Shown here: piece by piece, positions 35,675-56,984 of the stretch
How the letters are laid out: the number at the start of each line of letters is the position of its first letter
Numbering within the stretch: the first letter of the stretch is position 1
From: Escherichia coli
GTDB lineage: Bacteria > Pseudomonadota > Gammaproteobacteria > Enterobacterales > Enterobacteriaceae
Reading direction: 5' to 3' (one strand)
Assembly: GCF_013315695.1 (NCBI RefSeq)
Contig: NZ_CP054353.1
Length of the DNA stretch: 64,000 nt
Made by a program: the position numbers and the translations under genes
Notes under the pieces: model-generated
Database searches by the model: none
Told to the model about the DNA's origin: nothing
What the model saw: the letters and a program-made list of their open reading frames with translations, nothing else

Positions 35675-35888
35675 GTTGGAGTCATTACCGTGATAAACAT
35701 CCGGTTTCTTCCACCATCGCACCGGACAGGCGACTATGAGGGGACAACGCCGCGCTCCGTTAACGCGGTAAACCCCGGTGTGTATCGTTTTTGATTATCC
35801 CCGCACACTCGCGCAGAGGAGTCTCCCTGTCGGGCTGCGGTCTCTGTTAATGAGGGAATACAGCGACGATACGGCGCATCAACAAAAC

Positions 35889-36356
35889 TTATTTCAGGCA
35901 CTGAGTACGGATATATTCCTGCGCCCCTTCCAGTTGCTTCTGCATCGTCATCAGCCGCTCTCTGAGGGTGAAATAATCCCGTGTAACGGTGTCTGCCAGT
36001 TGGGGGCCGGTTGCATTATCCACGCGGGCGGTGCCGGTGGCTTCACGCACGGGACCTGGACAGGTGGCGTTGATACGCAGGCGCTTACGACCAGCGGCAA
36101 CGTCAGCGCGAAGAGTTTCATTTTCAGCTTTCGCATCAGCTAACTCCTTCGTGTATTTTGCATCGAGCGCAGCAACATCACGCTGACGCATCTGCATGTC
36201 AGTAATTGCCGCGTTCGCCAGCTTCAGTTCTCTGACATTTTTGTCGCGCTGGGCTTTGTAGGTAATGGCGTTATCACGGTAATGATTCAGCCCCAGACTA
36301 AGCGCACCACAGGCCACCAGCAGGGCAATGATGACCACGCACAGTACGCGGTTCAT
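35889..36356 (-). CDS. i-spanin Rz
   Basis: 155-aa ORF …[70 protein letters not shown]… closely resembles lambda Rz. Confidence 0.9.
35951..36136 (-). CDS. o-spanin Rz1 lipoprotein (embedded in Rz, +1 frame)
   Basis: 61-aa [25 protein letters not shown]…[32 protein letters not shown]; lipobox and Pro-rich, lambda Rz1-like. Confidence 0.85.
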
Positions 36357-36357
36357 T

Positions 36358-36456
36358 TCACCACCAGCGTATCTGACCGATGAAATAACCGGAGGCCATA
36401 ATCACAAACACCAGCCAGATAAGAATGAACTTCCAGGTGGATAATTTTTCAGCCAT
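36358..36456 (-). CDS. possible 32-aa single-TM peptide between endolysin and Rz
   Basis: [35 protein letters not shown] read from sequence; stop two bases before the Rz start codon; below ORF-track cutoff. Confidence 0.3.
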
Positions 36457-36654
36457 CACTCGAATCTCCCGAATCAGTTTGCTAAAATCAAACACACTTT
36501 CTCCTTTGACTTTTCCGGAGTCAGGAAACACAAAACCCCGCTTGGTGCCAACAAACGGGGTTTTTACTTTTATTCACTTACGTTTCGCCAGTTCGCAGGA
36601 TTTCGTGTTATCCGCCCGCGTGGCCATGCCTTATTTTTCAGCAAAATATTCTGC

Positions 36655-37188
36655 TTATCTGTCGATTCCCCAGCACGCCAGCGCGCTCTCCTGGTCACGA
36701 CGGGATACCTGACCATAACAGTTGTTTGAGCGGATACGGCAGTCTCTGCCACCGTCCTTAATCCACCAGCGAATCGCCTCACACGCTCCCCTGCGATCAC
36801 CTGCATTAATTCGTTTATAAAACGTCGACGGGAAACACTTACCGGGACCAATGTTGTACGGACAGAATGACGCGATCCCCGCTTTCTGGGGTTCACTCAA
36901 TGGCACTCTGATGTTTTTCTCCACCCATGCCAGCGCCTCATCACGCTCAATGGCGTTAACCCGGTCGCATTTTTCCTTCGACAACTTCATGCCCGGAACG
37001 ACAGGTTTGCCATCCACCAGGATGGCACCGCGGCAGATGGTCCAGATACCCGCACCATCACGGTATGCCGTGGTGTGGTTACCTTCCTTTTCATCCAGAA
37101 ACTGGTCGAGAATGTCAGGCGCAGGCGCACCAGCGGCAATCAGCGCCAGAACGGCAGCCGACAGGCCGTATCTGATTTTTGCGTTCAT
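36655..37188 (-). CDS. phage endolysin (GH24 lysozyme with N-terminal signal-anchor-release-like segment), RrrD-like
   Basis: 177-aa ORF MNAKIRYGLSAAVLALIAAGAPAPDILDQFLDEKEGNHTTAYRDGAGIWTICRG… closely resembles cryptic-prophage lysozyme RrrD. Confidence 0.9.
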   Translation of the reverse strand: MNAKIRYGLSAAVLALIAAGAPAPDILDQFLDEKEGNHTTAYRDGAGIWTICRGAILVDGKPVVPGMKLSKEKCDRVNAIERDEALAWVEKNIRVPLSEPQKAGIASFCPYNIGPGKCFPSTFYKRINAGDRRGACEAIRWWIKDGGRDCRIRSNNCYGQVSRRDQESALACWGIDR

Positions 37189-37293: not shown

Positions 37294-37566
37294 ATGGACA
37301 ATAACACCATTTCTCTACAGGAGTTGCTCGACAGCATTTCCAGGCTTCGGGAAGACGTGAATACCCTTACCGTCGCCTTCTCATATCTGGCATTCTCAAT
37401 TCCAAGGGAACAGATGCAATCAACGCTGGCATCAATCCAGTTTGAATCATGCAATCCCAAATGGTCTCAGGAACAACAAGACTCTTTCAGGCGGCTTGCT
37501 GTATTACTGGATGAAAAATATGCTGGTAAAATTACCATTTCGGCGGACTCTTCAGAGAACCCGTAA
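37294..37566 (+). CDS. hypothetical 90-aa protein, antisense-oriented inside lysis cassette
   Basis: ORF with strong SD (gaggatt, 6 nt before ATG); convergent with orf114, overlapping it by 35 nt. Confidence 0.45.
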   Translation: MDNNTISLQELLDSISRLREDVNTLTVAFSYLAFSIPREQMQSTLASIQFESCNPKWSQEQQDSFRRLAVLLDEKYAGKITISADSSENP

Positions 37567-37876
37567 TTATTCCCGGTAGTTTTCCTCTGTAGGTTATCAA
37601 CACATCCTGCGCCTCTAAAATTACGGGGCGCTTTTCCGGCGACTGCTCATCCCCTTCACATAACCCGGCAGCAACATCCAGGAAGACCTGTCTGATGCTC
37701 CTTCTGGCTGCTGCCTCATAAAACTCCAGCGCGGCACCTTCAACACGGTCCAGCGAGATGTCCAGGTCAAAAATTTCACCGTCAAAGCGTTTTTTGTCCC
37801 GTAACGCTAAAGTTACCGTAACTTTATTCTCAAAATTGCGGATCCCTTTCACAATCAGTTCATAGTTTTGAGTCAT
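37532..37876 (-). CDS. hypothetical 114-aa phage protein between holin and endolysin (position of ydfR-type genes)
   Basis: ORF immediately downstream of holin stop, co-directional with lysis genes. Confidence 0.55.
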   Translation of the reverse strand: MTQNYELIVKGIRNFENKVTVTLALRDKKRFDGEIFDLDISLDRVEGAALEFYEAAARRSIRQVFLDVAAGLCEGDEQSPEKRPVILEAQDVLITYRGKLPGIITGSLKSPPKW

Positions 37877-37880
37877 TGAA

Positions 37881-38096
37881 TTACTCTCCCCGTGCAGCCT
37901 TACGACGGTCCTCTCTGATTTTGAAATACAGGTTAGTCAGATATGTCAGCAGCCCAAACAGCAGACTCCCCAGCACGCCTATTGCCGCCCACTGAGACGG
38001 GGAAACCCTGTCCAGCAACTGCAGGAACCAGTAGCCCGTTCCCACCGCTGACGTGGTGTATGACACACCTGTTGTGATTTTTTCCATCTGGTACAT
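37881..38096 (-). CDS. phage 21-type pinholin S with dual-start motif
   Basis: [71 protein letters not shown] resembles S21 (MKSMDKISTG…); start set at dual-start Met within ORF 37881..38174. Confidence 0.85.
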
Positions 38097-38246: not shown

Positions 38247-40100
38247 TTATGATGATGCCGGTGCATTTATCTCCAGCACCAGACTTTCTATCTCAACGCC
38301 ATACGCTGCATTTTTGGTAATATCCGTCAGCGTCAGCGCATTCAGCCCCAGTGTCAGACTGTCTTTTATGACCTGGAATGCCGGGCCAGCCACTCCATTC
38401 AGTTTCGGAGTAACCGTGGCACTGCCGGCGGTGAACACCAGCTCCAGCGTCTGCCAGTCGTTACTGTAATTCCCGAACTCGCCCAACTTTGTGTTTCCTG
38501 CTTTCTTGTGATGCATCAGATTCAGTTTGCCGTCTGTGGTCTGGGTGAAGAACGACATCAGGAACGGGTTACCAGTCCCGGTCATCGCCACGACGTCAGG
38601 TAACGCTACATCGGTATACAGATAAATTCCCAGACCGAACTGGTTGTTGGTCAGTGCGCCTGACAGTCGAAACTTACAGCTCAGTCTGCCACCCCGTGTC
38701 AGCAGGGAGACTGCGTCATCCACCGGGCGCGTCAGGGACCAGGCTTTATTGCTCTGCTTGGTGATCTTAAATACACCATCTGACAACTGAATTCCGCCAT
38801 TCTTAATGCTCCAGCCCTGCGCAGCAGCGTCTCCGGCTGTCGGCAACAGGGAGATTGTGCGTATGGATGCATCTTCAGACGGCCCCGATGGCGTGTCGCC
38901 GCCGGGCGAGGGTTTGATTTCCGGTGCCTTACCACTAATGAAGGCTAAGGTGCGACCGGCTACGTTCAGAATAGCAGTTGCCATACGATCGGGAATAATG
39001 CCACGACGCGCCCATGAGCTGAAATGCGTCGGGCGATTTGATGATACCCAGTTTTTGTTCGTTCGGGATGCCGAACCGTAATAACCAGACCCGGCAATAT
39101 CAGGATCTTCTGACGGGTTGTTTGTCGGTGTATTAACTCCGCTACCATCGGTCATAAAGGGAACAAAATAAATCTGCTGGGATTCTTTACCTTTATATGC
39201 ACCATATACCACTTCATATTGCGTACCGTGTTCTTGTTTCCACGCGTATGTCGTGTCGCCACAAATCCAGGGGACTGATGCCGGACTTCCACCGTGACAC
39301 TGCGCCGCCAGCCCGGCAAGGTCAGCACGGAACTGCTGTACCATTGCAAGAAATGCTGCTGGCTGCTGGGCGTAACTGGCATTCGTCATATCGAATTCCC
39401 CCTGCATCCAGCATATCGCCAGCAAAACGTTTTTCGGGTTTTTCTGCAATGCTGCCTTCGTGCGGAAAAGCAGATCCTGATATAACGGCTTACCCACTCC
39501 CCAGCGAGCCGAATCCTGACTGGCTCCCGTGGACTCGCTGAATGTCCCCTCCGTGCCCTGGGTGAATGCCGAACCACCACGACAGCATGGTACCAGCAGG
39601 ATCCCCGCATTATTAGGGATATACGGAAGCAGTTTTTTGGCAATATGTAAGCCCTGTCCGACACAGCCGTACTGCCCTTTGCTCAGGTCAGCCCGGGGAT
39701 GGTTAATCGTACTCATATCCTGAACATCATGCAGACAATGGTCAGCAGGAATGATGTCGTTAAATACGCATACTTCACCACCGGGAGTCACTGTGTTACG
39801 ACGGGCCAGTTGCTTAATGCGCGGATGGGGCGCATCGTATGAATCCGGAAGCGGAAGCCCTTCACCGTAAGCCATGGCATTGGATTGCCCGGCCAGTACG
39901 ATGACGTAGTACCACTCCGGCTCAGTTGCACCACTGACGACCACATCACCTTCTGCTGCAATCGCCTGCATCAGGGTATAAGGGGTTATGGCCACCGGAC
40001 TACCAAACGGCTGCCAGCCCTCCTTCAGTTTTTGTGTCAGTCGTTTCGCAAGGTCTGACGGCGATGCCGCCCTGACCACGTCATAGTGTTTAAATGCCAT
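38247..40100 (-). CDS. prophage sialate O-acetylesterase NanS-p (N-terminal DUF1737-like, SASA/SGNH esterase domain)
   Basis: 617-aa ORF; N-terminus MAFKHYDVVRAASPSDLAKRL…; VIVLAGQSNAMAYGEG esterase motif; located between tRNAs and holin as in Stx-type phages. Confidence 0.8.
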   Translation of the reverse strand: MAFKHYDVVRAASPSDLAKRLTQKLKEGWQPFGSPVAITPYTLMQAIAAEGDVVVSGATEPEWYYVIVLAGQSNAMAYGEGLPLPDSYDAPHPRIKQLARRNTVTPGGEVCVFNDIIPADHCLHDVQDMSTINHPRADLSKGQYGCVGQGLHIAKKLLPYIPNNAGILLVPCCRGGSAFTQGTEGTFSESTGASQDSARWGVGKPLYQDLLFRTKAALQKNPKNVLLAICWMQGEFDMTNASYAQQPAAFLAMVQQFRADLAGLAAQCHGGSPASVPWICGDTTYAWKQEHGTQYEVVYGAYKGKESQQIYFVPFMTDGSGVNTPTNNPSEDPDIAGSGYYGSASRTNKNWVSSNRPTHFSSWARRGIIPDRMATAILNVAGRTLAFISGKAPEIKPSPGGDTPSGPSEDASIRTISLLPTAGDAAAQGWSIKNGGIQLSDGVFKITKQSNKAWSLTRPVDDAVSLLTRGGRLSCKFRLSGALTNNQFGLGIYLYTDVALPDVVAMTGTGNPFLMSFFTQTTDGKLNLMHHKKAGNTKLGEFGNYSNDWQTLELVFTAGSATVTPKLNGVAGPAFQVIKDSLTLGLNALTLTDITKNAAYGVEIESLVLEINAPASS

Positions 40101-40330
40101 GAATCCTCCCGGGCGGGATAATGTTGTGAGTCAGATAAGGAGCAGGCTGAAGTCCGGAAGTTACAGGACAATGGCAGAAGGGAGACTACAGCCCGCAATT
40201 CGAAAAAGACCGCGCAGTTGCGCAGAGTGATTACTATGGGGTATTATTCGCCAGCTGAAATATTACTTCACGTTTTATTGTTTATTCCTTGCCGCCCGCG
40301 TCTCCCAGCGCGGGCTTTTTTTGTCCATAA

Positions 40331-40568
40331 GAAAGCCCCTCCGGAGAGGGGCTAAAGCCGCGTATCTGTATCATCATGCACATGGTGCCGGGTGCCTCCC
40401 GGTGAGTTCAGCCCGGTGCCACTAAACCCGCGTCATTCTCGTTTTGATAATCAGAGATTATACCGTCACCAGTCGCCCCTCCGCTCAGGGGGATTCACCA
40501 TGCGAAATTTTTTTAACAAATGCCCAGTCTGACAGGCAACTGTCAACTTACTGAATTGTGAGCAACAT
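40331..40568. repeat. hairpin-rich noncoding repeat unit, copy A
   Basis: Shares blocks aaagcccctccggagaggggct, catggtgccgggtgcctcccggtga, cccctccgc.cagggggattcaccatgc, ttttaacaaa, ctgaattgtgag with copy B. Confidence 0.7.
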
Positions 40569-40815
40569 AGCATTTAACGGGGAACCTGTTTTCTGCAGTA
40601 AAAAGGCCCACCGGAGCGGATGGGCCTGGAAGGATAGCGGTCATGTGATGCCGGTTTCCCGGTAACTCAGCACCGGTATCTGAGTCAACGTTTTCTCTAC
40701 TGGGTCATTTCCGATACGCCCTGCCTGCTGACAGGCTTTCATCACATCTGAAAATATAGCACCCTGACTGATACTGTAGTACCTAAGGTTCCAGAAACTG
40801 TGATGTATCCGGCAC

Positions 40816-41036
40816 AGAAAAGCCCCTCCGGAGAGGGGCTGGAGAGTGGCGCTATGTGCCATTGCATGGTGCCGGGTGCCTCCCGGTGAATTCAGTACCA
40901 GCACCTGAATCCGCGATTATCCCATATACCTACTCGCTGATTGCCCCTCCGCACAGGGGGATTCACCATGCCAGTTTCTTTTAACAAACTCCCCGCAAAC
41001 CAGACAACAGTCAACCGCCTGAATTGTGAGACATTT
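40816..41036. repeat. hairpin-rich noncoding repeat unit, copy B
   Basis: Degenerate direct repeat of copy A (~485 bp period); a third partial copy of the ccgg-hairpin block lies at ~40690..40740. Confidence 0.7.
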
Positions 41037-41074: not shown

Positions 41075-41151
41075 TGGCGCGTTGTACTGGATTCGAACCA
41101 GTGACCGATTGCTTAGAAGGCAATTGCTCTGTCCGGCTGAGCTAACAACGC
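41075..41151 (-). tRNA. tRNA-Arg (anticodon UCU)
   Basis: Manual fold: acceptor GCGTTGT/ACAACGC, D-arm GCTC..GAGC, anticodon stem ATTGC/GCAAT with loop CTTCTAA, T-arm ACTGG TTCGAAT CCAGT, CCA end. Confidence 0.9.
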
Positions 41152-41164
41152 AGGATACAGATAA

Positions 41165-41241
41165 TGGACCGCCTTCGGGGACCCGAACTCCGCGCAACCA
41201 GCTTCGAAAGCTGGCGCTCTTTCCTGATGAGCTAATGGCGG
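41165..41241 (-). tRNA. tRNA-Arg-like (anticodon UCG), possibly degenerate
   Basis: Perfect anticodon stem CCAGC/GCTGG with loop TTTCGAA, but one mismatch each in acceptor and T stems and T-loop TTCGGGT lacks the conserved A58. Confidence 0.5.
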
Positions 41242-41248
41242 TATGTGA

Positions 41249-41324
41249 TGGTGGCCCTTGCTGGATTTGAACCAGCGACCTGGCGATTATGAGTCGCTCG
41301 CTCTCACCACTGAGCTAAAGGGCC
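41249..41324 (-). tRNA. tRNA-Ile2/Met type (anticodon CAU), ileX/ileZ-like
   Basis: GGCCCTTTAGCTCAGTGGTGAGAGCGAGCGACTCATAATCGCCAGGTCGCTGGTTCAAATCCAGCAAGGGCCACCA; near-identical to remembered E. coli tRNA-Ile2 (k2CAU). Confidence 0.85.
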
Positions 41325-41373: not shown

Positions 41374-42423
41374 TCAAACGATTAAATCCTGAACTTCCCT
41401 GACTGTCTGCTCAAAACGTCCGGTCTCCAGTTCAACGCCAATCGCACGACGCCCAAGCGCCAGTGCCGCTTTTACCGTTGAACCTGAGCCCATAAAAAAA
41501 TCTGCAACCAGGTCACCCGGACGACTGCTTGCGCTGATTATCTGCTGCAGCATTTCTGCCGGTTTTTCGCACGGATGTTTCCCGGGATAGAACTGCACCG
41601 GTTTATGTGTCCACACATCCGTGTACGGCACCTGCGCCGTCACACCAAAATACCGCCGCAGATGCTTATATTCACTCTGCAGCTCCACATACTGCCGGTT
41701 CAGTGACGTATACGTATCCACCAGCTGGTGGTGGGGCTTTTCCAGTTCACCGCGCTGATGTTTCTCTTCTGCCACCCGGGCAAACAGCGACTGTAATTTC
41801 AGATAATCGCTTTCGTTCGGTAGCTGCCACTGACTGGCACTGAACCAGTGCGACACCATGTTTTTCTTTCCTGTGGCATCTGCAATCTGTTTTGCCGTTA
41901 TCCCCAGGGCAGCGCGCGCATCACGAAAGTAAGAAATCAGCGGGGCCATCACATGCTGTTTCAGTGCACTGCCCTTCGCCGCATACCCGGCATCTTTCGG
42001 ACGATACGGCCCCTGATAATGTTCCGCGAACAGAATGCGCTCTGTGGCGGGGAAATACGCCCGCAGGCTTTCCTTGTTGCATCCGTTCCAGCGTCCGGAC
42101 GGCTTCGCCCAGATAATATGGTTCAGCACACTGAAGCGTTCACGCATCATGATTTCGATATCAGATGCCAGGCGATGACCACAGAACAGGTAAAGACTTC
42201 CGACAGGTTTCAGCACCCGCCAGAACTGCGCCAGACACTGGTCCAGCCACTTCAGGTAATCATCGTCGCCCTTCCACTGGTTATCCCAGCCCTCAGGCTT
42301 CACTTTAAAGTACGGCGGGTCCGTGACTATCAGGTCAACAGAATTTTCGGGTAACGACCGGATAAATTCCAGGCAGTCGGCGTTGATTAACTCACAACTG
42401 GATATTTTTACAGTATTAAGCAT
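41374..42423 (-). CDS. orphan DNA methyltransferase (N6-adenine/N4-cytosine class, DPPY motif)
   Basis: 349-aa ORF with DPPY catalytic motif (LIVTDPPYF) and C-terminal AdoMet-binding FxGSGST motif; no adjacent restriction endonuclease gene. Confidence 0.8.
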   Translation of the reverse strand: MLNTVKISSCELINADCLEFIRSLPENSVDLIVTDPPYFKVKPEGWDNQWKGDDDYLKWLDQCLAQFWRVLKPVGSLYLFCGHRLASDIEIMMRERFSVLNHIIWAKPSGRWNGCNKESLRAYFPATERILFAEHYQGPYRPKDAGYAAKGSALKQHVMAPLISYFRDARAALGITAKQIADATGKKNMVSHWFSASQWQLPNESDYLKLQSLFARVAEEKHQRGELEKPHHQLVDTYTSLNRQYVELQSEYKHLRRYFGVTAQVPYTDVWTHKPVQFYPGKHPCEKPAEMLQQIISASSRPGDLVADFFMGSGSTVKAALALGRRAIGVELETGRFEQTVREVQDLIV

Positions 42424-43675: not shown

Positions 43676-44037
43676 GCGTACTCCAGTTCTGTGATTTTTA
43701 TCCCCAACCGCCCACCAGGAACAAGCTGACCGCGCACAATATTAATTTCATCAAACTGCTCGTCGTCTATGAGCAGCCCCGCATGCGTCAGTACATCCAG
43801 TGGTGCCTTCAGGATATTGTCCAGGTCACGACGGCGCTTATCCGGTGGCTCTGCAATAATTTCTATTGCCGGCCTTCCGGACAGGTTTAATTTCAGTTGC
43901 TGCTGGCGAACAATAAGCGCCACATCACGGCGATAACGCTCACCGACTTTTGATACAAAATATGTGCTGCCACGACGTCGCCAGTAAGTGTTCACCGTTG
44001 GCGGGTAAGGCAAAACAAATTCTATGCGTTCAGTCAT
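43672..44037 (-). CDS. rusA: Holliday-junction resolvase RusA
   Basis: 121-aa ORF with RusA motifs (LPYPPTVNTYW…, PDKRRRDLDNILKAPLDVLTHAGLLIDD). Confidence 0.85.
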   Translation of the reverse strand: MTERIEFVLPYPPTVNTYWRRRGSTYFVSKVGERYRRDVALIVRQQQLKLNLSGRPAIEIIAEPPDKRRRDLDNILKAPLDVLTHAGLLIDDEQFDEINIVRGQLVPGGRLGIKITELEYA

Positions 44038-45093: not shown

Positions 45094-45094
45094 G

Positions 45095-45690: not shown

Positions 45691-45927
45691 AGCCTGCTTC
45701 CCCTTGCCTTTCGGCACGTAAGAGGCTAACCTACATTTGTGAGACATAGATTGGGCCTCAGATTAATGTTAAGCGTCTTGCAGGACGCGAAATGTTAACT
45801 GGGGCTTTTCTCTATCTGCCTTTCAGTGTTCATGCCTGAGACAGATAGCCTCAAGCACCCGCAGCCATTCTACTTAACTCACGTCACCTCGCCAATATGA
45901 AATCAATCAGAAAGGTGATCCATAAAA

Positions 45928-47979: not shown

Positions 47980-48000
47980 TAAAATTTCCTCCGGACAAAA

Positions 48001-48747: not shown

Positions 48748-48753
48748 GACACG

Positions 48754-49738: not shown

Positions 49739-50164
49739 TTAGTGCATCACCACAGCATTCCCTGCCGGGCCGCCGCGATTCATCTGGTCATACAAAACAA
49801 CCGCTGACGCAACAAAATCATCGACATCCTTCACCAGCCGATCCCTCCGTTCGACGATCTCACGGTAATATTCAGAACTGTGGCTGCGCATACGGGCCAC
49901 CAGCAAAGGCGGCATCGCCTTTTCGATCGCCGGTAACAGAGCCTGCATTTTTTCAACAGCATCAGGGGGGGCTTTCTCTACCCAGCGGAAAATTTTCTGG
50001 GTATTGCGAGCCAGGGCTTCCGGATGGCTGTCGTCATACAGTTCCGGGAACGTCATACCCAACTCAAAATAAGCCTGGGTTATTCCAGCTGCTGGAACTT
50101 TTTCGCCATCAGGACGCGCCCAGGCATTCATCGCCATGCGGATGTGTTCATGCTTGATTTTCAT
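49739..50164 (-). CDS. YdaT-like protein (cII-position gene)
   Basis: 141-aa ORF beginning MKIKHEHI…, as remembered for Rac YdaT. Confidence 0.65.
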   Translation of the reverse strand: MKIKHEHIRMAMNAWARPDGEKVPAAGITQAYFELGMTFPELYDDSHPEALARNTQKIFRWVEKAPPDAVEKMQALLPAIEKAMPPLLVARMRSHSSEYYREIVERRDRLVKDVDDFVASAVVLYDQMNRGGPAGNAVVMH

Positions 50165-50429
50165 GAATCAAGCTCCTAGAAAGTGGTTGTGTTAACGTTT
50201 TGGTATCTTCCAGCTCGGGCCAAATATTCATCCAATCAAAAGGCCTTAGTTGCTGACGTGTAACTTCACCATTACTGGCTCGCTCAATAAGGACACATAA
50301 CGATGCCCCTAACACTTGACCTTTACTCAATGCCTTTCTTAGATAACCGATGCTGGTACCACACTCGCATGCAAACATACGCTGTTCATCTGACGAAAGA
50401 GAATTGAGAAATATTCTTAATTCTTCCAT
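50148..50429 (-). CDS. Cro-like/YdaS-family HTH regulator
   Basis: 93-aa ORF with HTH (ECGTSIGYLRKALSKGQ) and YdaS-like C-terminus (QQLRPFDWMNIWPEL); divergent from repressor gene. Confidence 0.7.
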   Translation of the reverse strand: MEELRIFLNSLSSDEQRMFACECGTSIGYLRKALSKGQVLGASLCVLIERASNGEVTRQQLRPFDWMNIWPELEDTKTLTQPLSRSLIHENQA

Positions 50430-50456
50430 AGCTACTCCTTAGTAAACACAGCAAAG

Positions 50457-50493
50457 AATACCCACAGGTAAACAAAAGCCAATACCCACAGGT
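50457..50493. promoter_or_regulatory. right operator region (two aatacccacaggt sites within gtaaacaa/ttgtttac inverted repeat)
   Basis: Repeated 13-mers at 50457..50469 and 50481..50493 in the 100-bp divergent intergenic region. Confidence 0.6.
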
Positions 50494-50529
50494 TGTTTAC
50501 CTTGCGGTAATCGCATCTATTATTTACCT

Positions 50530-50949
50530 ATGGACAAATATGAATTTAGACGACAGCAACTCATCAAAATTCGTGATGAGAAATGCGATGGTAAAGCGGT
50601 TAACGTGGCCAGAAAGATCGGGCGCGAGCCTTCTTATGTATCAAGAATGTTGTACCCAGAGGGGAAAAAGGGAAAAAAACGGATCGCTGATGATATGGTG
50701 GAGATTATCGAAGAGTCCTTTGGGTTACCCCGGGGATGGATGGATGGTATCGTTTCATCATCAACGAACACAGCCTCCAGTTATGAAACAAGGGTTCTAA
50801 CGCCACGACAACGTATTTTTTTAGATCTCTTAGACGAACTGCCAGAAAGTGAAGCGGATAAATTATTAAAAACTCTTGAAGAGAAAAAACAGTATTACAA
50901 TATGATCTACGAAGAAATCCGTAAAAAGAAAGCACAAAACGCATCATAG
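50530..50949 (+). CDS. prophage repressor, RacR-like (HTH, no S24 peptidase domain)
   Basis: 139-aa ORF with HTH (AVNVARKIGREPSYVSRMLY); divergent from cro-like gene. Confidence 0.7.
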   Translation: MDKYEFRRQQLIKIRDEKCDGKAVNVARKIGREPSYVSRMLYPEGKKGKKRIADDMVEIIEESFGLPRGWMDGIVSSSTNTASSYETRVLTPRQRIFLDLLDELPESEADKLLKTLEEKKQYYNMIYEEIRKKKAQNAS

Positions 50950-51213: not shown

Positions 51214-51366
51214 ATGGATACTATCGATCTTGGCAACAGCGAATCTCTGGTATGTGGCGTGTTCCCCAACCAGGACGGTACGTTCACCGCGATGACGTAT
51301 ACCAGAAGCAAAACGTTTAAAACTGAAGCTGGCGCGCGTCGCTGGTTAACCAGAAACACTGACTGA
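51214..51366 (+). CDS. hypothetical small early protein (YdaF-like by position)
   Basis: 50-aa ORF MDTIDLGNSESLVCGVFPNQDGTFTAMTYTRSKTFKTEAGARRWLTRNTD with RBS; alternative start at 51133. Confidence 0.45.
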   Translation: MDTIDLGNSESLVCGVFPNQDGTFTAMTYTRSKTFKTEAGARRWLTRNTD

Positions 51367-51779
51367 TGAGGTTGACGATGGAATTTAAAGATTTACCAGT
51401 ACCATTCCAGGAAATGGCATCGAATGTGGTTCGCTCTCAACTGGCGACTCTTGACCTGAGTACCGTAGAAAAGGAAACCATCGATACTATATCCGGTAAC
51501 GTGCGTCGTGCCTTTATAGGTCTGTATGAAGAGAAGCGCCTATTCGGCGGACAGAATTCGCCTGAAAACAAGAATCAAGCAAATGATGAGAAGCTGAAAC
51601 ACATTATCGCCTTACTTTTGGAAGACGCAAAACGTCTACAGCAACTGGAACCAAATGCAGGCACAGAGGCCCGCATTTGGATTGCCATGAAATCACTCAA
51701 ATGTGAAAGCAGTGATTATTTCAAAACAACAATTAAAACTACTCAACTTTCGGGAGAGCTACTGAAGAAATTGCCATAA
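51366..51779 (+). CDS. hypothetical early protein
   Basis: 137-aa ORF whose start overlaps the previous stop. Confidence 0.5.
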   Translation: MRLTMEFKDLPVPFQEMASNVVRSQLATLDLSTVEKETIDTISGNVRRAFIGLYEEKRLFGGQNSPENKNQANDEKLKHIIALLLEDAKRLQQLEPNAGTEARIWIAMKSLKCESSDYFKTTIKTTQLSGELLKKLP

Positions 51780-52056
51780 GAGCATGGTCTTTCTCTTGTT
51801 CTGCAAGATGAGCATTAATACCTGGTATGGTTTTTTCAAATTTATCTATCTGTTGAATAACAACTTCGCGGTATACGTTTGTTTTTGTACCACCAAGCGC
51901 AGCCGTTAATGCAGAAAGCATATTTAGTATCATATCAGTGCGATATGAAAGAATCCTGATAGCTTCATCTTGTTCTTCAATAATAGATTGCAGGGCCTCA
52001 ATTTGCTTTTTATCCATTTCACCCTCCTGAGGGTTGGTAATTAAGGAGTTCTCCAC
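51739..52056 (-). CDS. hypothetical protein, opposite orientation within early-left operon
   Basis: 105-aa ORF convergent with orf137; predicted coiled-coil-like composition. Confidence 0.4.
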   Translation of the reverse strand: MENSLITNPQEGEMDKKQIEALQSIIEEQDEAIRILSYRTDMILNMLSALTAALGGTKTNVYREVVIQQIDKFEKTIPGINAHLAEQEKDHALMAISSVALPKVE

Positions 52057-52588
52057 GGGTCAGGTGGAGTGCGTGCGCCGGACACGGGTGAGCATCCGGC
52101 ACTGACAGCTTACTGAAAGGATATGTCCCTGAAAAGTCAGGGCATAACGCGAAAGCGCACGGCGAAATTGGTCTCTCTGTACGGTGTCGTTAAATTTAGT
52201 TCGACCGTGCGCTTCCGGTTGTGGCACTCCGCGAAATGGCGCGGCGGTAAGTATGGCTGGGGTTTCCTCCATTGCTCCAGAAAATGCACCGGGTTGTCAG
52301 GTTGACCATACGCTTAAGTGACAACCCCGCTACAACGCCCTCTGTTATCAATTTTCTGGTGACATTTGGCGGTATCAGTTTTACTCCGTGACTGCTCTGC
52401 CGCCCTTTTTAAAGTGAATTTTGTGATGCGGTGAATGCGGCTATGCGCACGCGGAACAGTTAAAGCAGTAAGGCGGTATTTTACGGGCGTAACGAGCATC
52501 AACTAACCCGGCGTTAATTGTTAACTGGTTAACGTCACCTGGAGGCACCAGGCACTGCATCACAAAATTCATTGTTGAGGACGCGATA

Positions 52589-52777
52589 ATGGAAACGTTA
52601 TTACCAAACGTTAATACGTCTGAAGGTTGTTTTGATATTGGTGTTCTGCTCAGTAACCGGGAGTTTACTGAAGATGCCATTAATATGAGGAAATATGAGC
52701 CTTATCTGCTCAATGATAATTCCATACTTTCCCGAATTGCTCTTCTTGAACTTGGTATTTTCGGAGAACGTCAATGA
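52589..52777 (+). CDS. hypothetical small protein
   Basis: 62-aa ORF with RBS; stop overlaps next start (ATGA). Confidence 0.45.
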   Translation: METLLPNVNTSEGCFDIGVLLSNREFTEDAINMRKYEPYLLNDNSILSRIALLELGIFGERQ

Positions 52778-52962
52778 CTTCAGCATTTGCACTGATGATG
52801 ACGGTTTTTCTTATAACGGGTGAATCACAGAATGTGATTACCGGAATTTATGCAAGTAAAGAATCCTGCCTCCAGGCAAGAGACGAGCAAAAAATTTCTG
52901 GTGAATGCCTCCCGCTAAAAAAAGTATCGCTGTACCTGAATAACGAAACACCGGCTGGATAA
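52774..52962 (+). CDS. hypothetical small protein with N-terminal hydrophobic segment
   Basis: 62-aa ORF MTSAFALMMTVFLITGESQ…, translationally coupled to previous ORF. Confidence 0.45.
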   Translation: MTSAFALMMTVFLITGESQNVITGIYASKESCLQARDEQKISGECLPLKKVSLYLNNETPAG

Positions 52963-53057: not shown

Positions 53058-55529
53058 ATGAGTAAGGTCTTTATTTGCGCTGCTATTCCTGATGAACAGG
53101 CCATAAAAGAAGATAGCGCTGTTGCGGTGGCCACTGCCATTGAAGCTGGTGATGAGCGTCGCGCACGCGCAAAATTTCATTGGCAATTTCTGGAGCAATT
53201 CCCTGCAGCTCAGGACTGCGCTTATAAATTTATTGTCTGTGAGGATAAACCCGGCATACCCCGCCCTGCCCTCGATTCCTGGGATGCTGAATATATGCAG
53301 GAAAACCGCTGGGATGAGGAGTCTGCTTCCTTTGTCCCGGTTGAGACTGAATCCGATCCGATGAACGTCACTTTTGACAAGCTGGCCCCTGAAGTACAGA
53401 ACGCTGTCATGGTTAAGTTCGACACATGTGAAAACATCACCGTTGATATGGTTATTAGCGCACAGGAATTGTTGCAGGAAGACATGGCAACATTCGACGG
53501 ACATATCGTTGAAGCGTTGATGAAAATGCCAGAAGTTAACGCCATGTATCCGGAGCTTAAGCTGCATGCCATCGGGTGGGTTAAGCATAAATGTAAGCCT
53601 GGTGCCAAATGGCCCGAAATTCAGGCAGAGATGCGCATCTGGAAAAAACGTCGCGAAGGTGAACGTAAGGAAACCGGAAAATACACGTCTGTTATTGATC
53701 TCGCCCGCGCCAGAACCAATCAACAGCACAGTGAAAATTCAACAGGAAAAATCAGCCCGGTCATTGCTGCCATTCATCGCGAATACAAGCAGACATGGAA
53801 AACACTGGATGACGAACTGGCCTACGCTCTCTGGCCTGGTGATGTGGATGCCGGAAACATTGACGGCAGCATCCATCGCTGGGCAAAAAATGAAGTTATC
53901 GACAACGACCGCGAAGACTGGAAGCGTATCTCGGCATCAATGCGCAAACAGCCTGATGCCCTTCGCTACGACCGCCAAACTATTTTTGGCCTTGTCCGTG
54001 AGCGTCCGATCGACATTCACAAAGATCCCGTAGCACTGAACAAATATATCTGCGAATACCTGACGACAAAGGGCGTGTTTGAGAATGAAGAAACAGACCT
54101 GGGCACTGTTGATGTTCTCCAGTCATCAGAAACACAAACTGATGCAGTGGAAACTGAGGTATCTGATATCCCAAAAAATGAAACCGCGCCGGAAGCTGAA
54201 CCATCTGTAGAGCGTGAGGGGCCGTTCTATTTCCTCTTCGCAGATAAGGACGGAGAAAAATGCGGTCGCGCAAACAAACTTTCTGGTCTGGATAAGGCAC
54301 TGGCTGCTGGCGCCACTGAAATCACAAAAGAAGAATATTTTGCCCGAAAAAATGGCACATACACGGGCTTACCGCAAAATGTAGATACCGCTGAAGATTC
54401 AGAACAACCAGAGCCGATAAAAGTTACCGCTGACGAAGTAAACAAAATTATGCAGGCAGCCAATATCAGCCAGCCTGACGCCGATAAGTTGCTTGCTGCA
54501 TCACGTGGTGAATTTGTTGAAGGGATTAGTGACCCGAATGATCCGAAATGGGTTAAGGGGATCCAGACCCGCGATTCTGTGAACCAGAACCAGCATGAAT
54601 CGGAACGGAACTACCAAAAAGCGGAACAAAACAGCCCAAATGCGTTACAAAACGAGCCAGAAACGAAACAGCCTGAACCAGTGGCGCAACAGGAAGTGGA
54701 AAAAGTCTGCACCGCCTGCGGTCAGACCGGCGGCGGCAACTGCCCTGATTGTGGCGCGGTGATGGGCGACGCAACATACCAGGAAACATTCGATGAAGAG
54801 TATCAGGTTGAAGTTCAGGAAGATGATCCGGAGGAAATGGAAGGCGCTGAACATCCACACAAGGAGAACACTGGCGGCAATCAGCATCACGATAGCGATA
54901 ATGAAACTGGCGAGACGGCAGATCGCTCAATTAAGGTGAACGGTCATCACGAAATCACATCCACCAGCAGGACGTGTGACCATCTAATGATCGACCTTGA
55001 AACCATGGGAAAAAATCCTGATGCCCCGATCATCTCAATAGGTGCAATATTTTTCGATCCGCAAACCGGAGATATGGGACCGGAATTTAGTAAGACTATC
55101 GATCTGGAAACTGCTGGCGGAGTCATTGATCGGGACACCATTAAATGGTGGCTTAAGCAATCACGCGAAGCGCAATCTGCCATTATGACCGATGAAATCC
55201 CGTTAGATGATGCACTGTTACAATTGCGGGAATTTATCGACGAAAACTCCGGTGAATTTTTTGTTCAGGTTTGGGGAAATGGAGCCAACTTCGACAACAC
55301 GATTTTGCGCCGTTCATACGAACGGCAGGGGATCCCCTGCCCGTGGCGTTACTACAACGATCGCGATGTACGCACAATCGTTGAGCTGGGGAAAGCCATA
55401 GACTTCGATGCCAGAACGGCTATTCCATTCGAAGGTGAGCGCCATAATGCACTTGATGACGCCCGTTACCAGGCAAAATACGTTTCAGTTATCTGGCAAA
55501 AACTGATCCCGAGTCAGGCTGATTTTTAA
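53058..55529 (+). CDS. exodeoxyribonuclease VIII-like protein with C-terminal DnaQ-type (DEDDh) 3'-5' exonuclease domain
   Basis: 823-aa ORF; acidic linker; C-terminal HLMIDLETMG…WGNGANFDNTIL…HNALDDARYQA exonuclease motifs. Confidence 0.7.
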   Translation: MSKVFICAAIPDEQAIKEDSAVAVATAIEAGDERRARAKFHWQFLEQFPAAQDCAYKFIVCEDKPGIPRPALDSWDAEYMQENRWDEESASFVPVETESDPMNVTFDKLAPEVQNAVMVKFDTCENITVDMVISAQELLQEDMATFDGHIVEALMKMPEVNAMYPELKLHAIGWVKHKCKPGAKWPEIQAEMRIWKKRREGERKETGKYTSVIDLARARTNQQHSENSTGKISPVIAAIHREYKQTWKTLDDELAYALWPGDVDAGNIDGSIHRWAKNEVIDNDREDWKRISASMRKQPDALRYDRQTIFGLVRERPIDIHKDPVALNKYICEYLTTKGVFENEETDLGTVDVLQSSETQTDAVETEVSDIPKNETAPEAEPSVEREGPFYFLFADKDGEKCGRANKLSGLDKALAAGATEITKEEYFARKNGTYTGLPQNVDTAEDSEQPEPIKVTADEVNKIMQAANISQPDADKLLAASRGEFVEGISDPNDPKWVKGIQTRDSVNQNQHESERNYQKAEQNSPNALQNEPETKQPEPVAQQEVEKVCTACGQTGGGNCPDCGAVMGDATYQETFDEEYQVEVQEDDPEEMEGAEHPHKENTGGNQHHDSDNETGETADRSIKVNGHHEITSTSRTCDHLMIDLETMGKNPDAPIISIGAIFFDPQTGDMGPEFSKTIDLETAGGVIDRDTIKWWLKQSREAQSAIMTDEIPLDDALLQLREFIDENSGEFFVQVWGNGANFDNTILRRSYERQGIPCPWRYYNDRDVRTIVELGKAIDFDARTAIPFEGERHNALDDARYQAKYVSVIWQKLIPSQADF

Positions 55530-55593
55530 TGTTCAACCCCGGTCGTTGCCCACCAGCTATAGTGGCGGCGACCATGATTAGCGAACGACGCCC

Positions 55594-55842
55594 ATGGCAA
55601 GACTTATTCTGCTCACTGAGTGGGCAAAAGAGGAATTCAGTGAACCGGTCCCTACTCCGAGTACGTTAAGTAAATACGCTAAAGCCGGAATGATATTTCC
55701 TCTCCCCAAAAAAGTTGGAAGACGCTGGCGAGTGGATCCGCAAGCTCGCTTTGTCGGAATGGTAAACAAGCCGGAGGTGATCGCCACAGATCACCCTGCT
55801 TTGAAGAGGATACTGGAAGATGGCGCGCCCGCGAAAATATAA
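55594..55842 (+). CDS. xis: excisionase-like protein
   Basis: 82-aa ORF immediately upstream of and overlapping the integrase gene. Confidence 0.6.
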   Translation: MARLILLTEWAKEEFSEPVPTPSTLSKYAKAGMIFPLPKKVGRRWRVDPQARFVGMVNKPEVIATDHPALKRILEDGAPAKI

Positions 55843-56950
55843 AACCGATGTTCCGGGATTATCTCCGTATTTTGACAAAAGAAATAACAAAGTTTACTGG
55901 CGTTACAGGCATCCCATAACAGGCAAAAATCACGGTCTCGGCAGTATTGACCAGAAACTGGCAGAAACTATTGCAGCAGAAGCGAACAGCCGTCTTGCCC
56001 GGCAGCAAATGGAACAAATGCTCAGTCTGCAGGAGAAAATTATTAGTGATACCGGCGGTTCATCAACCGTTACCATTTTTCTGAATAATTACAGAAAAAT
56101 TCAACAGGAAAGATATGAAAACGGCGAGATCAAACTCAACACGCTGAAACAGAAAGCAGCTCCTCTCAGGGTATTTGATGAACGTTTTGGCACCAGACCG
56201 TTAGATGCCATAACCGTAAAAGATGTGGTATCAGTACTGGAAGAGTACAAGGCCAGAGGACATAACAGAATGGGACAAATTTTCAGGAAAGTACTGATCG
56301 ATGTTTTCCGGGAAGCTCAGCAAACGGGCGATGTCCCGCCAGGCTTTAACCCTGCAGAATCGGCAAAAAAACCGCAGGTGCGGATATCAAGACAGCGACT
56401 GACTTTTGATGAGTGGATGATGATTTATAACGCAGCGGAAAAGGATGGTTACTTTTTACAGCGCGGTATGCTGCTGGCACTGATGACAGGCCAGCGCCTT
56501 TCAGATATTTGCAAAATGCAATTTTCGGATATCCGGGATGGTTATCTTCATGTCGAACAGCAAAAAACAGGAACCCGGATTGCCATCCCTCTGGCTCTGC
56601 GTTGCGATAAATTAAATCTCACCCTGGATGATGTGGTGTCATCCTGCCGCGATTGCGTTCTTAGTCCGTGGCTATTGCACCACCATCACGCGAAAGGGAC
56701 AGCTAAGCGCGGCGGGATGGTTAAGCCAGCAACATTAACCGTTGCATTTAAAAAAGCCCGGGATTCTGTGGATTACAACTGGCGTGCTAATGGCACCCCT
56801 CCCTCTTTCCATGAGCAGAGATCTTTATCAGAGCGATTGTTCAGAGAGCAGGGGGTTGATACCAAAATTTTGCTAGGCCATTCGAATCAAAAAATGACCG
56901 ATATTTACAACGACGCACGCGGTAAGGAATGGAAAAAACTGGTCATTTGA
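55820..56950 (+). CDS. int: tyrosine recombinase (lambda-type integrase)
   Basis: 376-aa ORF with catalytic-region motifs (…LMTGQRLSDICKMQFSDI…, …HHHAKGTAKRGG…, …LLGHSNQKMTDIY…); 3' end 35 bp from ompW stop. Confidence 0.85.
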   Translation: MARPRKYKTDVPGLSPYFDKRNNKVYWRYRHPITGKNHGLGSIDQKLAETIAAEANSRLARQQMEQMLSLQEKIISDTGGSSTVTIFLNNYRKIQQERYENGEIKLNTLKQKAAPLRVFDERFGTRPLDAITVKDVVSVLEEYKARGHNRMGQIFRKVLIDVFREAQQTGDVPPGFNPAESAKKPQVRISRQRLTFDEWMMIYNAAEKDGYFLQRGMLLALMTGQRLSDICKMQFSDIRDGYLHVEQQKTGTRIAIPLALRCDKLNLTLDDVVSSCRDCVLSPWLLHHHHAKGTAKRGGMVKPATLTVAFKKARDSVDYNWRANGTPPSFHEQRSLSERLFREQGVDTKILLGHSNQKMTDIYNDARGKEWKKLVI

Positions 56951-56984
56951 TGACCAGTTTTGCAGAGGGGTTTTGCAGAGAAAA

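What the first reader, a model, noticed from the sequence alone, without database searches (positions are those of the whole stretch)
35690..56984. Mosaic defective lambdoid prophage at the ompW 3' end, with its morphogenesis arm deleted at an IS1
The element runs int-xis-exonuclease, RacR/YdaS/YdaT-like immunity, O-like and DnaC-like replication, nin/RusA/Q-like, methyltransferase, tRNAs, nanS-p, pinholin-endolysin-Rz/Rz1, then stops ~200 bp after Rz at IS1. There are no terminase, head or tail genes and no second attachment site. The early half resembles Rac, while the late half resembles Stx-converting phages but has no stx. It should be non-inducible as a virion but still carries lysis genes, a hok toxin and an exonuclease.
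Basis: partly seen in the sequence, partly recalled or inferred. Interest (0 to 1): 0.5.

Follow-up and report, generated by a model that had tools for sequence, protein, structure and literature searches.

The report
IS1-truncated lambdoid prophage at ompW
A 21-kb leftover of a lambda-like virus sits at the E. coli ompW gene, and an IS1 insertion sequence has removed its particle-building half and one of its two attachment sites, which is an ordinary and well-understood way for prophages to decay.

Summary
Window 35690-57103 is a 21.4-kb remnant of a PPompW-type lambdoid prophage. Its integrase and excisionase are 100% identical to PPompW_EH1846, and it has the published 121-bp att inside the ompW 3' end. 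The gene order is int-xis-exonuclease-dicB/DicF, immunity, O/DnaC-like replication, QueH, hokD/sok, DUF968-RusA-Q, methyltransferase, three tRNAs, NanS-p, holin-endolysin-Rz/Rz1. It stops 199 bp past Rz at a 768-bp IS1 (34922-35689). This IS1 has no target-site duplication. An identical IS1 at 21153-21920 has a perfect 9-bp one. On its other side the IS1 abuts a truncated yciE.

Comparative genomes show the history. CE10 has the full ~48-kb prophage with attR. Strain 510016 has a simple IS1 insertion at the same yciE site, with a duplication. Isolate AF3 has the identical yciE'-IS1 junction but lacks only 704 bp (attR plus the yciE 3' end) and keeps the whole morphogenesis arm. The window and MSB1_4I lack a further 25,328 bp.

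Corrections: resemblance to Rac is weak (Qin and PPompW are closer), and the right boundary lies inside ompW. This is ordinary IS-mediated prophage decay, so interest is low.

The parts
34630..34921 (+). yciE' pseudogene: the first 292 bp of 507, cut by IS1. It also carries an older internal stop and frameshift.
   Evidence: Homology to K-12 and CE10 yciE stops at 34921.
34922..35689 (+). IS1 (IS1A), 768 bp, with insA and insAB'. It has no target-site duplication (AGGCTCTAT on the left, GTGATAAAC on the right). This is the deletion scar.
   Evidence: It is 100% identical to the IS1 at 21153-21920, which has the 9-bp TSD TTAACAGCG.
35690..35888 (.). 199 bp of phage sequence distal to Rz. The rest of the late arm was removed beyond this point.
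   Evidence: Colinear with CE10 and AF3 from exactly 35690.
35889..36356 (-). Rz i-spanin, with the Rz1 o-spanin embedded at 35951-36136.
   Evidence: phrog_13, E=5e-76. PGAP calls it 'lysis protein'. The Rz1 ORF is, and it is 84% identical to Stx2_95.
36655..37188 (-). GH24 endolysin with an Ala/Gly-rich N-terminal hydrophobic segment (a SAR-type candidate).
   Evidence: phrog_7. Matches 3HDE/3HDF and RrrD 4ZPU at E~1e-15. 94% identical to the Stx2_95 endolysin.
37532..37876 (-). YdfR-family protein. An overlapping 90-aa ORF lies on the + strand at 37294-37566.
37881..38096 (-). Class II holin, 71 aa, with two possible start codons (Met1 and Met4). It is a pinholin candidate.
   Evidence: PGAP 'class II holin family'. 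phrog_9876 and phrog_20.
38247..40100 (-). NanS-p-like SASA-family carbohydrate esterase, 617 aa.
   Evidence: 54% identical to the yjhS 9-O-acetyl-Neu5Ac deacetylase of Stx2_95.
40323..41000 (-). Two STnc100 sRNA-like modules (40323-40532 and 40810-41000), each ending in an intrinsic terminator. The upstream one occupies the position where stx2AB sits in Stx2 phages.
   Evidence: Rfam, 165 and 136 bits. Alignment to Stx2_95..
41075..41324 (-). Three tRNA genes: Arg(TCT), Arg(TCG) and a CAT-anticodon tRNA. ARAGORN calls the last one Met and PGAP calls it Ile.
   Evidence: The same trio lies upstream of stx2 in Stx2_95.
41374..42423 (-). Orphan type II DNA methyltransferase. A 65-aa ORF lies at 42574-42771.
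   Evidence: 96% identical to the Stx2_95 methylase.
42986..45367 (-). Nin-type region: Q antiterminator (42986-43675), RusA (43672-44037), DUF968/YdfU HNH protein (44038-45093) and a 90-aa ORF.
   Evidence: 76-95% identical to PPompW_EH1846.
45535..45860 (-). hokD toxin gene (45535-45690) with the hok/sok regulatory RNA region (45685-45860).
   Evidence: NCBIfam Hok. Rfam sok at 120 bits.
45928..46593 (-). QueH epoxyqueuosine reductase (a moron gene).
46768..49716 (-). DUF977 (Ren-like), DUF1627 (YdaW-like), a DnaC-like helicase loader (48001-48747) and an O-like replication initiator (48754-49716).
   Evidence: The helicase loader is 80% identical to Rac YdaV.
49739..50949 (.). Immunity switch. 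It comprises a YdaT-family/CII-like gene (49739-50164, -), a YdaS/Cro-like HTH gene (50148-50429, -), an operator-like repeat region (50456-50533) and a divergent 139-aa HTH repressor with no S24 peptidase domain (50530-50949, +).
51214..52962 (+). Early-left accessory genes: DUF1391, a 133-aa ORF, a 92-aa ORF (- strand), DicF sRNA (52354-52405), DicB (52589-52777) and a DUF1482/YdfD-like gene (52774-52962).
53058..55529 (+). 823-aa exonuclease. Its middle part is RecE-like and it has a C-terminal DEDDh-type 3'-5' exonuclease domain. It is intact here and frameshifted in CE10.
55594..56950 (+). Excisionase (55594-55842) and tyrosine integrase (55820-56950).
   Evidence: Both are 100% aa-identical to PPompW_EH1846 xisE and intE.
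56983..57103 (.). The only surviving attachment site (the int-proximal one): 121 bp overlapping the ompW 3' end, with the identity core at 57085-57103. The phage supplies a variant ompW C-terminus.
   Evidence: It corresponds to the repeat_region annotated in PPompW_EH1846. The 121-bp att is reported in PMC8112680.
56985..57623 (-). Chimeric but intact ompW. The last ~40 codons are phage-derived.

Best explanation
This is the int-proximal 21.4 kb of a PPompW-type mosaic lambdoid prophage that integrated into the 3' end of ompW. An IS1 that had inserted into the neighbouring yciE gene generated deletions extending from its right end (IRR) into the prophage. The first loss was 704 bp carrying the yciE 3' end and the distal att site, which is the state preserved in isolate AF3. 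A further 25.3 kb was then lost, or the whole 26 kb went in one event from the simple-insertion state. The lost DNA carried cos, terminase, head, tail, tail-fibre and cargo genes, and the deletion ended 199 bp past Rz.

The sequence shows these points directly: the junctions, the missing target duplication, the intermediate genomes, and the intact ORFs. The following consequences are inferred. With a single att site, Int and Xis cannot excise the element. Without cos, terminase, capsid or tail genes it cannot make virions. It still encodes an apparently intact repressor switch, an O/DnaC-like replication module, Q, a holin-endolysin-spanin cassette, hok/sok, DicB/DicF, an exonuclease, a methyltransferase and three tRNAs. 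It can therefore still confer immunity. If derepressed, it could replicate in situ and lyse the cell.
For: The gene content and order are lambdoid. Int and Xis are 100% identical to PPompW_EH1846, and the 121-bp att coincides with that phage's annotated duplication. The published att length is also 121 bp.

The IS1 at 34922-35689 has no TSD, while the identical IS1 at 21153-21920 has the perfect 9-bp TSD TTAACAGCG. CE10 carries the same prophage at 99.7% identity, continuing through terminase...tail fibre...ompW' remnant...full-length yciE. The window lacks 27,284 bp of CE10 coordinates, including a CE10-specific IS3.

AF3 is 100% identical to the window over the 6,534 bp ending at the IS1 right end. 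In AF3 the IS1 is followed by the phage distal end and the complete morphogenesis arm, so only 704 bp is missing there. The window lacks AF3 L010 6535-31862, which is 25,328 bp. Strain 510016 has an IS1 at the very same yciE site and orientation with the TSD AGGCTCTAT, which shows what the undeleted insertion state looks like.

The IS1/post-Rz junction is present in the closed genome MSB1_4I and in only 1 of 5,426 complete genomes. The window differs from MSB1_4I by SNPs, an 11-bp indel and an ISKpn26, so the two are independent assemblies. The att core occurs once in the window.
Against: Sequence cannot distinguish transposase-mediated adjacent deletion from RecA recombination between two direct IS1 copies. 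Whether the window state arose through the AF3 state or directly from a simple insertion is also not resolvable.

Only 64 kb of the source genome is visible. Relocation of the arm elsewhere in that genome is excluded only indirectly. MSB1_4I is not among the 19 genomes listed at 100% coverage of the intact distal junction, and only 60 of the 97 genomes with at least 80% coverage were listed.

All functional statements (immunity, no excision, lysis on derepression) are inferred from gene content. The repressor lacks a recognisable S24 autocleavage domain, so the inducing signal is unknown.
Confidence: 0.9

Rival explanations
1. The outcome is the same but the mechanism differs. A second IS1 inserted just downstream of Rz in direct orientation, and RecA-dependent homologous recombination between it and the yciE IS1 deleted the intervening 25-26 kb, leaving one hybrid IS1.
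For: A hybrid IS1 would also lack a TSD. The genome carries many IS1 copies, and the window holds two identical direct copies. IS1 insertions in and around prophage ends and yciE recur across genomes.
Against: No genome in the collection shows an IS1 at the post-Rz site, and that junction is unique to MSB1_4I. AF3 has only the one IS1 in this locus. Two different right-hand endpoints share one fixed left junction, which is the classic signature of repeated one-ended IS1 adjacent deletion (established knowledge of IS1 biology).
Confidence: 0.25
2. Assembly artefact: contigs were mis-joined across the identical 768-bp IS1 repeats, and the real genome has an intact prophage.
For: The window holds two 100%-identical IS1 copies. 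Short-read assemblers can collapse such repeats.
Against: The same yciE'-IS1-Rz arrangement is present in the independently assembled closed chromosome of MSB1_4I, which differs from the window by 13 SNPs, an 11-bp indel and an ISKpn26. AF3 independently confirms the yciE'-IS1 left junction.
Confidence: 0.02
3. The morphogenesis arm was not lost. It was moved elsewhere in the chromosome by an IS1-mediated inversion or translocation, so the prophage is split rather than truncated.
For: Inversions between prophages at ompW and ydfJ are reported in O145:H28 (PMC8112680). Only 64 kb of the source genome is visible.
Against: MSB1_4I is not among the 19 genomes listed at 100% coverage of the phage-end/ompW'/yciE-3' junction (60 of the 97 genomes with at least 80% coverage were listed). 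The flanks on both sides of the locus are in normal K-12/CE10 order: trp-yciGF on one side and ompW-yciCBA-tonB on the other. Even a relocated arm would lack Q-driven late transcription and linkage to cos-replication.
Confidence: 0.03
4. The element never had structural genes. It is a phage satellite or PICI-like island that hijacks helper capsids.
For: It has int, xis, a repressor and replication genes but no capsid genes, which superficially resembles a satellite.
Against: At 21.4 kb it carries a full lambdoid Q-lysis arm. It is 99.7-99.9% identical to the corresponding part of complete ~48-kb prophages. It ends at an IS1 without a TSD, and it has no second att.
Confidence: 0.01

Closest known systems
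PPompW lambda-like prophages of STEC O145:H28 (e.g. PPompW_EH1846, LC567839; P08 of strain 112648; PMC8112680)
   Same: Integrase and excisionase are identical (100% aa). The integration site is the same, inside the ompW 3' end, with the same 121-bp att. The exonuclease-dicB early-left region is 92% nt identical, and hokD, DUF968, RusA and Q are 76-98% identical.
   Different: The immunity and replication modules differ (no match for the repressor, the YdaS-like gene or the O-like gene; DnaC-like instead of theirs). The late region differs (methyltransferase, NanS-p, S21-type lysis). Here the morphogenesis arm, the distal att and the attB-in-prophage cargo end are deleted, and the 21-bp attB-in-PP sequence is absent from the window.
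Full-length ompW prophage of E. coli CE10 (NC_017646.1) and of bloodstream isolate AF3 (NZ_OZ547117.1)
   Same: 99.7-99.9% nt identity across the whole remnant, with the same genes in the same order.
   Different: CE10 retains attR, yciE and the 26-kb lambda-like terminase-to-tail-fibre arm, plus its own IS3 insertion and frameshifts in Rz and the exonuclease. AF3 retains the arm but has already lost attR to the same IS1.
K-12 cryptic lambdoid prophages Qin, Rac and DLP12
   Same: The kind of object is the same: defective lambdoid remnants that keep regulatory, lysis and toxin genes and have lost morphogenesis genes, with IS elements at or near truncation points. Shared with Qin: hokD (98%), endolysin (88%), holin (79%), YdfU (79%), DicB (67%) and a DicF sRNA (Rfam). 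Shared with Rac: YdaV (80%) and YdaF (84%).
   Different: The integration site and integrase differ. There is no RacR homology. This remnant is very recent: all ORFs are intact, the event is private to one lineage, and a sister genome still has the arm.
Late regions of Stx2-converting phages (e.g. Stx2_95, LC567838)
   Same: The order methyltransferase, then tRNA trio, then NanS-p, then class II holin, endolysin and Rz/Rz1 is the same. MTase is 96%, holin 93% and endolysin 94% identical.
   Different: There is no stx. The 1,335-bp stx2AB segment is replaced by 471 bp containing a second STnc100-like module. The Q gene is of a different type, and NanS-p is only 54% identical.

Membership tests
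PPompW-type lambdoid prophage | Integrase >90% identical over >90% of its length to the PPompW integrase (criterion used in PMC8112680) | tested here: met
   376/376 aa identical to intE of PPompW_EH1846. Xis is 82/82 identical.
PPompW-type lambdoid prophage | Insertion in the ompW 3' end, bounded by two copies of a 121-bp att | tested here: not met
   The int-proximal copy is present at 56983-57103. The distal copy is absent from the window. It is present in CE10 as the ompW' remnant and was deleted together with the yciE 3' end. The element is therefore a truncated derivative, not a complete member.
PPompW-type lambdoid prophage | Lambdoid modular order: int-xis, early left, immunity, replication, nin/Q, lysis, morphogenesis | tested here: not met
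   All modules up to Rz/Rz1 are present and in order. The morphogenesis module is absent from the window, but it is present in AF3 and CE10.
IS1 | 768-bp element with terminal inverted repeats and insA/insB' with a programmed frameshift | tested here: met
   768 bp, with ends GGTGATGCTGCCAACTTACTGAT... and ...AAGTTGGAGTCATTACC. PGAP calls it an IS1A family transposase with a programmed frameshift.
IS1 | 9-bp target-site duplication for a simple insertion | tested here: not met
   The flanks are AGGCTCTAT and GTGATAAAC. This is expected for a deletion derivative. The control copy at 21153 has the TSD TTAACAGCG, and strain 510016 has the TSD AGGCTCTAT at the same yciE site.
Stx-converting phage | stxA and stxB genes between the tRNA genes and nanS-p in the late operon | tested here: not met
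   The stx2AB segment of Stx2_95 has no counterpart. Window 40562-41032 contains an STnc100-like module instead.
Rac prophage | Homology to the Rac integration, immunity and recombination genes (intR, racR, ydaS, recET) | tested here: not met
   There is no tblastn hit for Int, Xis, the repressor or the O-like protein. RacR BLASTP gives E=2.3. YdaS gives a 28-aa local match only. The RecE match is 40% over the middle 44% of the protein.
Pinholin/SAR-endolysin lysis system (phage 21 type) | A small class II holin with two TMDs, plus a GH24 endolysin carrying an N-terminal signal-anchor-release segment | tested here: inconclusive
   The holin is called class II by PGAP and matches PHROG holin families. 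The endolysin aligns to lysozyme chains 3HDE/3HDF and to RrrD 4ZPU at E~1e-15, and it has an Ala/Gly-rich hydrophobic N-terminus at residues ~8-24. That 3HDE/3HDF are the phage-21 SAR endolysin comes from my own knowledge, not from a tool output. Membrane release and pinhole formation cannot be tested with these tools.
hok/sok type I toxin-antitoxin | A Hok-family toxin ORF with the overlapping sok/mok regulatory RNA region | tested here: met
   A 51-aa HokD (PGAP; NCBIfam Hok subfamily). The Rfam sok model matches full length at 120.5 bits against a gathering score of 59.

The most novel reading that the evidence does not exclude
The remnant may not be mere debris. It may be a freshly 'locked-in' but fully functional regulatory-replication-lysis circuit. 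Every ORF is intact, there is no way to excise and there are no virions. On derepression it would amplify the flanking ompW-trp region in situ and lyse a subpopulation, releasing DNA or vesicles. It might also be rescued into new mosaic phages by recombination with co-resident lambdoid prophages. The private 106-bp SNP patch in the endolysin hints at such exchange. In that case selection, not chance, would explain why deletion stopped just past the lysis cassette.
Probability: 0.07. Interest if true: 0.35.

Novelty: already known. Interest (0 to 1): 0.1.

Why it matters
It matters little beyond bookkeeping. The locus is a clean, nucleotide-resolved example of how an insertion sequence next to a prophage first locks it in (loss of attR) and then strips its virion genes. 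All intermediate states are preserved in public genomes: intact, simple IS1 insertion, 0.7-kb deletion, and 26-kb deletion. For annotation, the locus should be called a defective PPompW-type prophage and not an inducible phage. The ompW gene is chimeric, with a phage-derived C-terminus. The retained lysis, hok/sok, DicB/DicF, methyltransferase and tRNA genes may still influence host physiology and phage immunity.

Tried and rejected
- Rac as the closest comparator was rejected. The protein-by-protein table and BLASTP of the repressor and YdaS show only patchy similarity. Qin and PPompW share more.
- A hidden second att was sought and not found. The att core searched with up to 3 mismatches gives one hit only. 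The 21-bp attB-in-prophage sequence of PPompW phages gives none.
- A hidden stx was sought and not found (alignment to Stx2_95).
- Defence systems among the unannotated ORFs were sought. PADLOC gave only the orphan type II methyltransferase and sub-threshold noise.
- NCBIfam added little for the holin, NanS-p, QueH and the YdaS/T-like proteins.
- A literature search for IS1 adjacent deletions in prophages returned only generic IS-deletion papers. The mechanism is cited from established knowledge instead.
- H95 (CEA106S), which has an IS1 near the phage end, turned out to be an unrelated insertion.
- The two side islands (19.9-21.1 kb and 61-64 kb) gave no informative family hits.
Full report
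**Identity of the window.** The 64-kb window is E. coli chromosome from the pdeR-topA-trp-ompW-tonB region. It is 99.93% identical over 28500-64000 to the closed genome of strain MSB1_4I (NZ_LR898874.1). It differs from that genome by 13 SNPs, one 11-bp indel and the absence of an ISKpn26 next to cobO. The window is therefore an independent assembly of a very close relative.

**Checking the observation.**
- On the + strand, reading toward ompW, lie DicF (52354-52405), dicB, a DUF1482 gene, an 823-aa exonuclease (53058-55529), xis (55594-55842) and int (55820-56950).
- A 139-aa HTH repressor (50530-50949, +) sits divergent from the rightward genes.
- On the - strand, in order, lie a YdaS/Cro-like gene, a YdaT-family gene, an O-like initiator, a DnaC-like loader, DUF1627, DUF977, QueH, hokD with its sok region, a 90-aa ORF, DUF968/YdfU, RusA and Q. 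These are followed by a 65-aa ORF, a DNA methyltransferase and three tRNAs. Then come two STnc100-like modules, a NanS-p-like esterase, a class II holin, YdfR, a GH24 endolysin and Rz with embedded Rz1 (35889-36356).

These identities rest on ORF calls (1 and 5), PGAP annotation of MSB1_4I (6), PHROGs (20 and 21), NCBIfam, ARAGORN, Rfam and PDB sequence matches for the endolysin (44). No terminase, capsid or tail gene exists anywhere in the window.

**Right boundary and att.** Alignment of the window, K-12 (unoccupied site) and both CE10 junctions shows that the phage carries its own version of the last ~120 bp of ompW. The identity core, ATATCCATGTACCACACTG, lies at 57085-57103 and occurs once in the window. 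The 121-bp segment 56983-57103 corresponds exactly to the 'duplication due to insertion' annotated in PPompW_EH1846. It also matches the 121-bp attL/R reported for prophages at ompW in STEC O145:H28 (PMC8112680). The remnant is therefore 35690-57103 (21,414 bp), and ompW (56985-57623) is an intact chimera with a phage-derived C-terminus.

**Left boundary and how the arm was lost.**
- The IS1 abuts a yciE fragment on its left (34630-34921, 292 of 507 bp) and the post-Rz phage sequence on its right. Its flanks (AGGCTCTAT and GTGATAAAC) are not a target duplication. The 100%-identical, co-oriented IS1 at 21153-21920 has a perfect 9-bp duplication, TTAACAGCG.
- CE10 carries the same prophage at 99.7% identity. 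Past Rz it continues through a YlcI/YnfO gene, a lambda-like terminase-portal-capsid-tail-J-Lom-tail-fibre arm, YkgJ and VapA/B cargo genes, a 126-bp ompW' remnant (the distal att) and full-length yciE. The window lacks 27,284 bp of CE10 coordinates, of which 1,252 bp is a CE10-specific IS3.
- The decisive comparison is bloodstream isolate AF3 (NZ_OZ547117.1). It is 100% identical to the window over the 6,534 bp ending at the IS1 right end, so it has the same yciE'-IS1 junction. In AF3 the IS1 is followed by the phage distal end, 140 bp past the VapA/B gene, and by the complete morphogenesis arm. AF3 lacks only 704 bp, comprising the yciE 3' end and ompW'/attR. The window lacks a further 25,328 bp.
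- Strain 510016 (NZ_CP025851.1) has a simple IS1 insertion at the very same yciE position and orientation with the TSD AGGCTCTAT. This shows what the undeleted precursor state looks like.
- The IS1/post-Rz junction exists in only one of 5,426 complete genomes, MSB1_4I.

Two different right endpoints sharing one fixed left IS junction, with neither carrying a TSD, is the textbook outcome of IS1-promoted adjacent deletion (established knowledge). Homologous recombination with a second, transient IS1 cannot be excluded from sequence alone.

**Mosaicism.** Int and Xis are 100% identical to PPompW_EH1846. The exonuclease-dicB block is 92% nt identical, and hokD, DUF968, RusA and Q are 76-98% identical to that phage. 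The methyltransferase (96%), the 65-aa ORF (97%), the holin (93%), the endolysin (94%) and Rz (86%) match Stx2a phage Stx2_95.

Against K-12 Rac, only the YdaV (80%), YdaF (84%), YdaW (55%), YdaT (30%), mid-RecE (40%) and Rz homologues match. RacR shows no similarity (E=2.3), and YdaS gives only a 28-aa local hit. K-12 Qin shares hokD (98%), endolysin (88%), YdfR, holin, YdfU, DicB and the N-terminal part of the exonuclease; DicF was identified by Rfam. 'Mosaic' is therefore right, 'Stx-phage-like late half without stx' is right, and 'Rac-like early half' is only partly right. The 1,335 bp holding stx2AB in Stx2_95 corresponds here to 471 bp (40562-41032) that contains a second STnc100-like module.

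**How it works now (inferred).**
- With one att site, Int and Xis have no partner site for excision.
- Without cos, terminase, capsid and tail genes, no virion can form.
- All retained ORFs are intact, including the exonuclease and Rz, which are frameshifted in CE10. This fits a very recent deletion.
- The repressor/YdaS-YdaT switch has four operator-like ACAGGTAAACAA/TTGTTTACCT motifs in 50456-50533, so it should still confer immunity.
- The repressor has no S24 autocleavage domain, so the inducing signal is unclear.
- If the switch is derepressed, O/DnaC-like replication would fire in situ, and Q would drive the late operon (methyltransferase, tRNAs, NanS-p, holin-endolysin-spanins). That would cause lysis without progeny.
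- The holin/endolysin pair looks like the phage-21 pinholin/SAR type: a class II holin, an Ala/Gly-rich N-terminal segment on the endolysin, and matches to 3HDE/3HDF. This remains untested.

**Comparison with what is known, and verdict.** ompW is a documented lambdoid integration site, and the PPompW family is described (PMC8112680). IS-mediated truncation of prophages, and cryptic lambdoid remnants that retain lysis and toxin genes (Rac, Qin, DLP12), are classical. The exact configuration is already in RefSeq (MSB1_4I).

The finding is real and correctly interpreted, but it is ordinary. Its only added value is a tidy series of deletion states, from intact prophage to the 26-kb loss, reconstructed from public genomes. 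I rate novelty as already known and interest at about 0.1.

Noticed in passing
window 19860-21920: A second IS1 (21153-21920) is 100% identical to the yciE copy and in the same orientation, with a perfect 9-bp TSD TTAACAGCG. It lies next to a low-GC (0.37) two-gene islet (102 aa and a 321-aa putative lipoprotein) inserted between cobO and rluB. Neither protein hits NCBIfam or PADLOC. MSB1_4I also has an ISKpn26 here that the window lacks. Two direct identical IS1 copies 13 kb apart bracket the trp operon and could delete it by recombination.
   Followed up: partly
window 61200-64000: A low-GC (0.33-0.39) insert lies between yciI and kch and is absent in CE10. It holds an SOS-response-associated-peptidase pseudogene (61222-61479) and a 597-aa LTA-synthase/sulfatase-family membrane protein (61588-63381). 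In MSB1_4I these are followed by a DinI-like gene, a tail-fibre fragment, an IS3 and an integrase Arm-domain fragment. This looks like a second, much more decayed prophage or island remnant.
   Followed up: partly
window 40323-40532 and 40810-41000 (- strand): Two STnc100 (RF02076) sRNA-like modules are about 69% identical. Each ends in the terminator AGCCCCTCTCCGGAGGGGCTTT. The upstream copy sits exactly where Stx2 phages carry stx2AB, and the downstream copy corresponds to the segment just after stx2B in Stx2_95. Terminator-like sites are enriched in this late-operon leader (13 found against 3.2 expected).
   Followed up: partly
window 36628-36733: Five SNPs private to the window cluster in 106 bp at the endolysin 3' end. 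MSB1_4I, AF3 and CE10 all agree with each other at these positions. This is probably a gene-conversion patch from another resident prophage. Overall, 11 of the 13 SNPs against MSB1_4I in 28500-64000 lie inside the prophage remnant.
   Followed up: partly
window 56951-56984: An 11-bp unit, GGTTTTGCAGA, is repeated between the int stop and the ompW stop. The window has one copy fewer than MSB1_4I and CE10.
   Followed up: no
window 34630-34921; loci L011, L013: IS1 insertions in or near yciE recur in E. coli: 9 complete genomes match. One unrelated strain (510016) has the IS1 at the identical site and orientation with the TSD AGGCTCTAT, which suggests an IS1 hot spot. yciE already carried an internal stop in this lineage and in CE10 before the IS1 event.
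   Followed up: partly
window 41249-41324: ARAGORN calls the CAT-anticodon tRNA Met, while PGAP annotates it as tRNA-Ile (lysidine-type). It belongs to an Ile/Met-Arg-Arg tRNA trio arranged as upstream of stx2 in Stx2_95.
   Followed up: no
window 45928-46593: An epoxyqueuosine reductase gene (QueH, as annotated by PGAP) is carried as a moron between the replication and nin regions. It has no counterpart in Rac, Qin, PPompW_EH1846 or Stx2_95.
   Followed up: no
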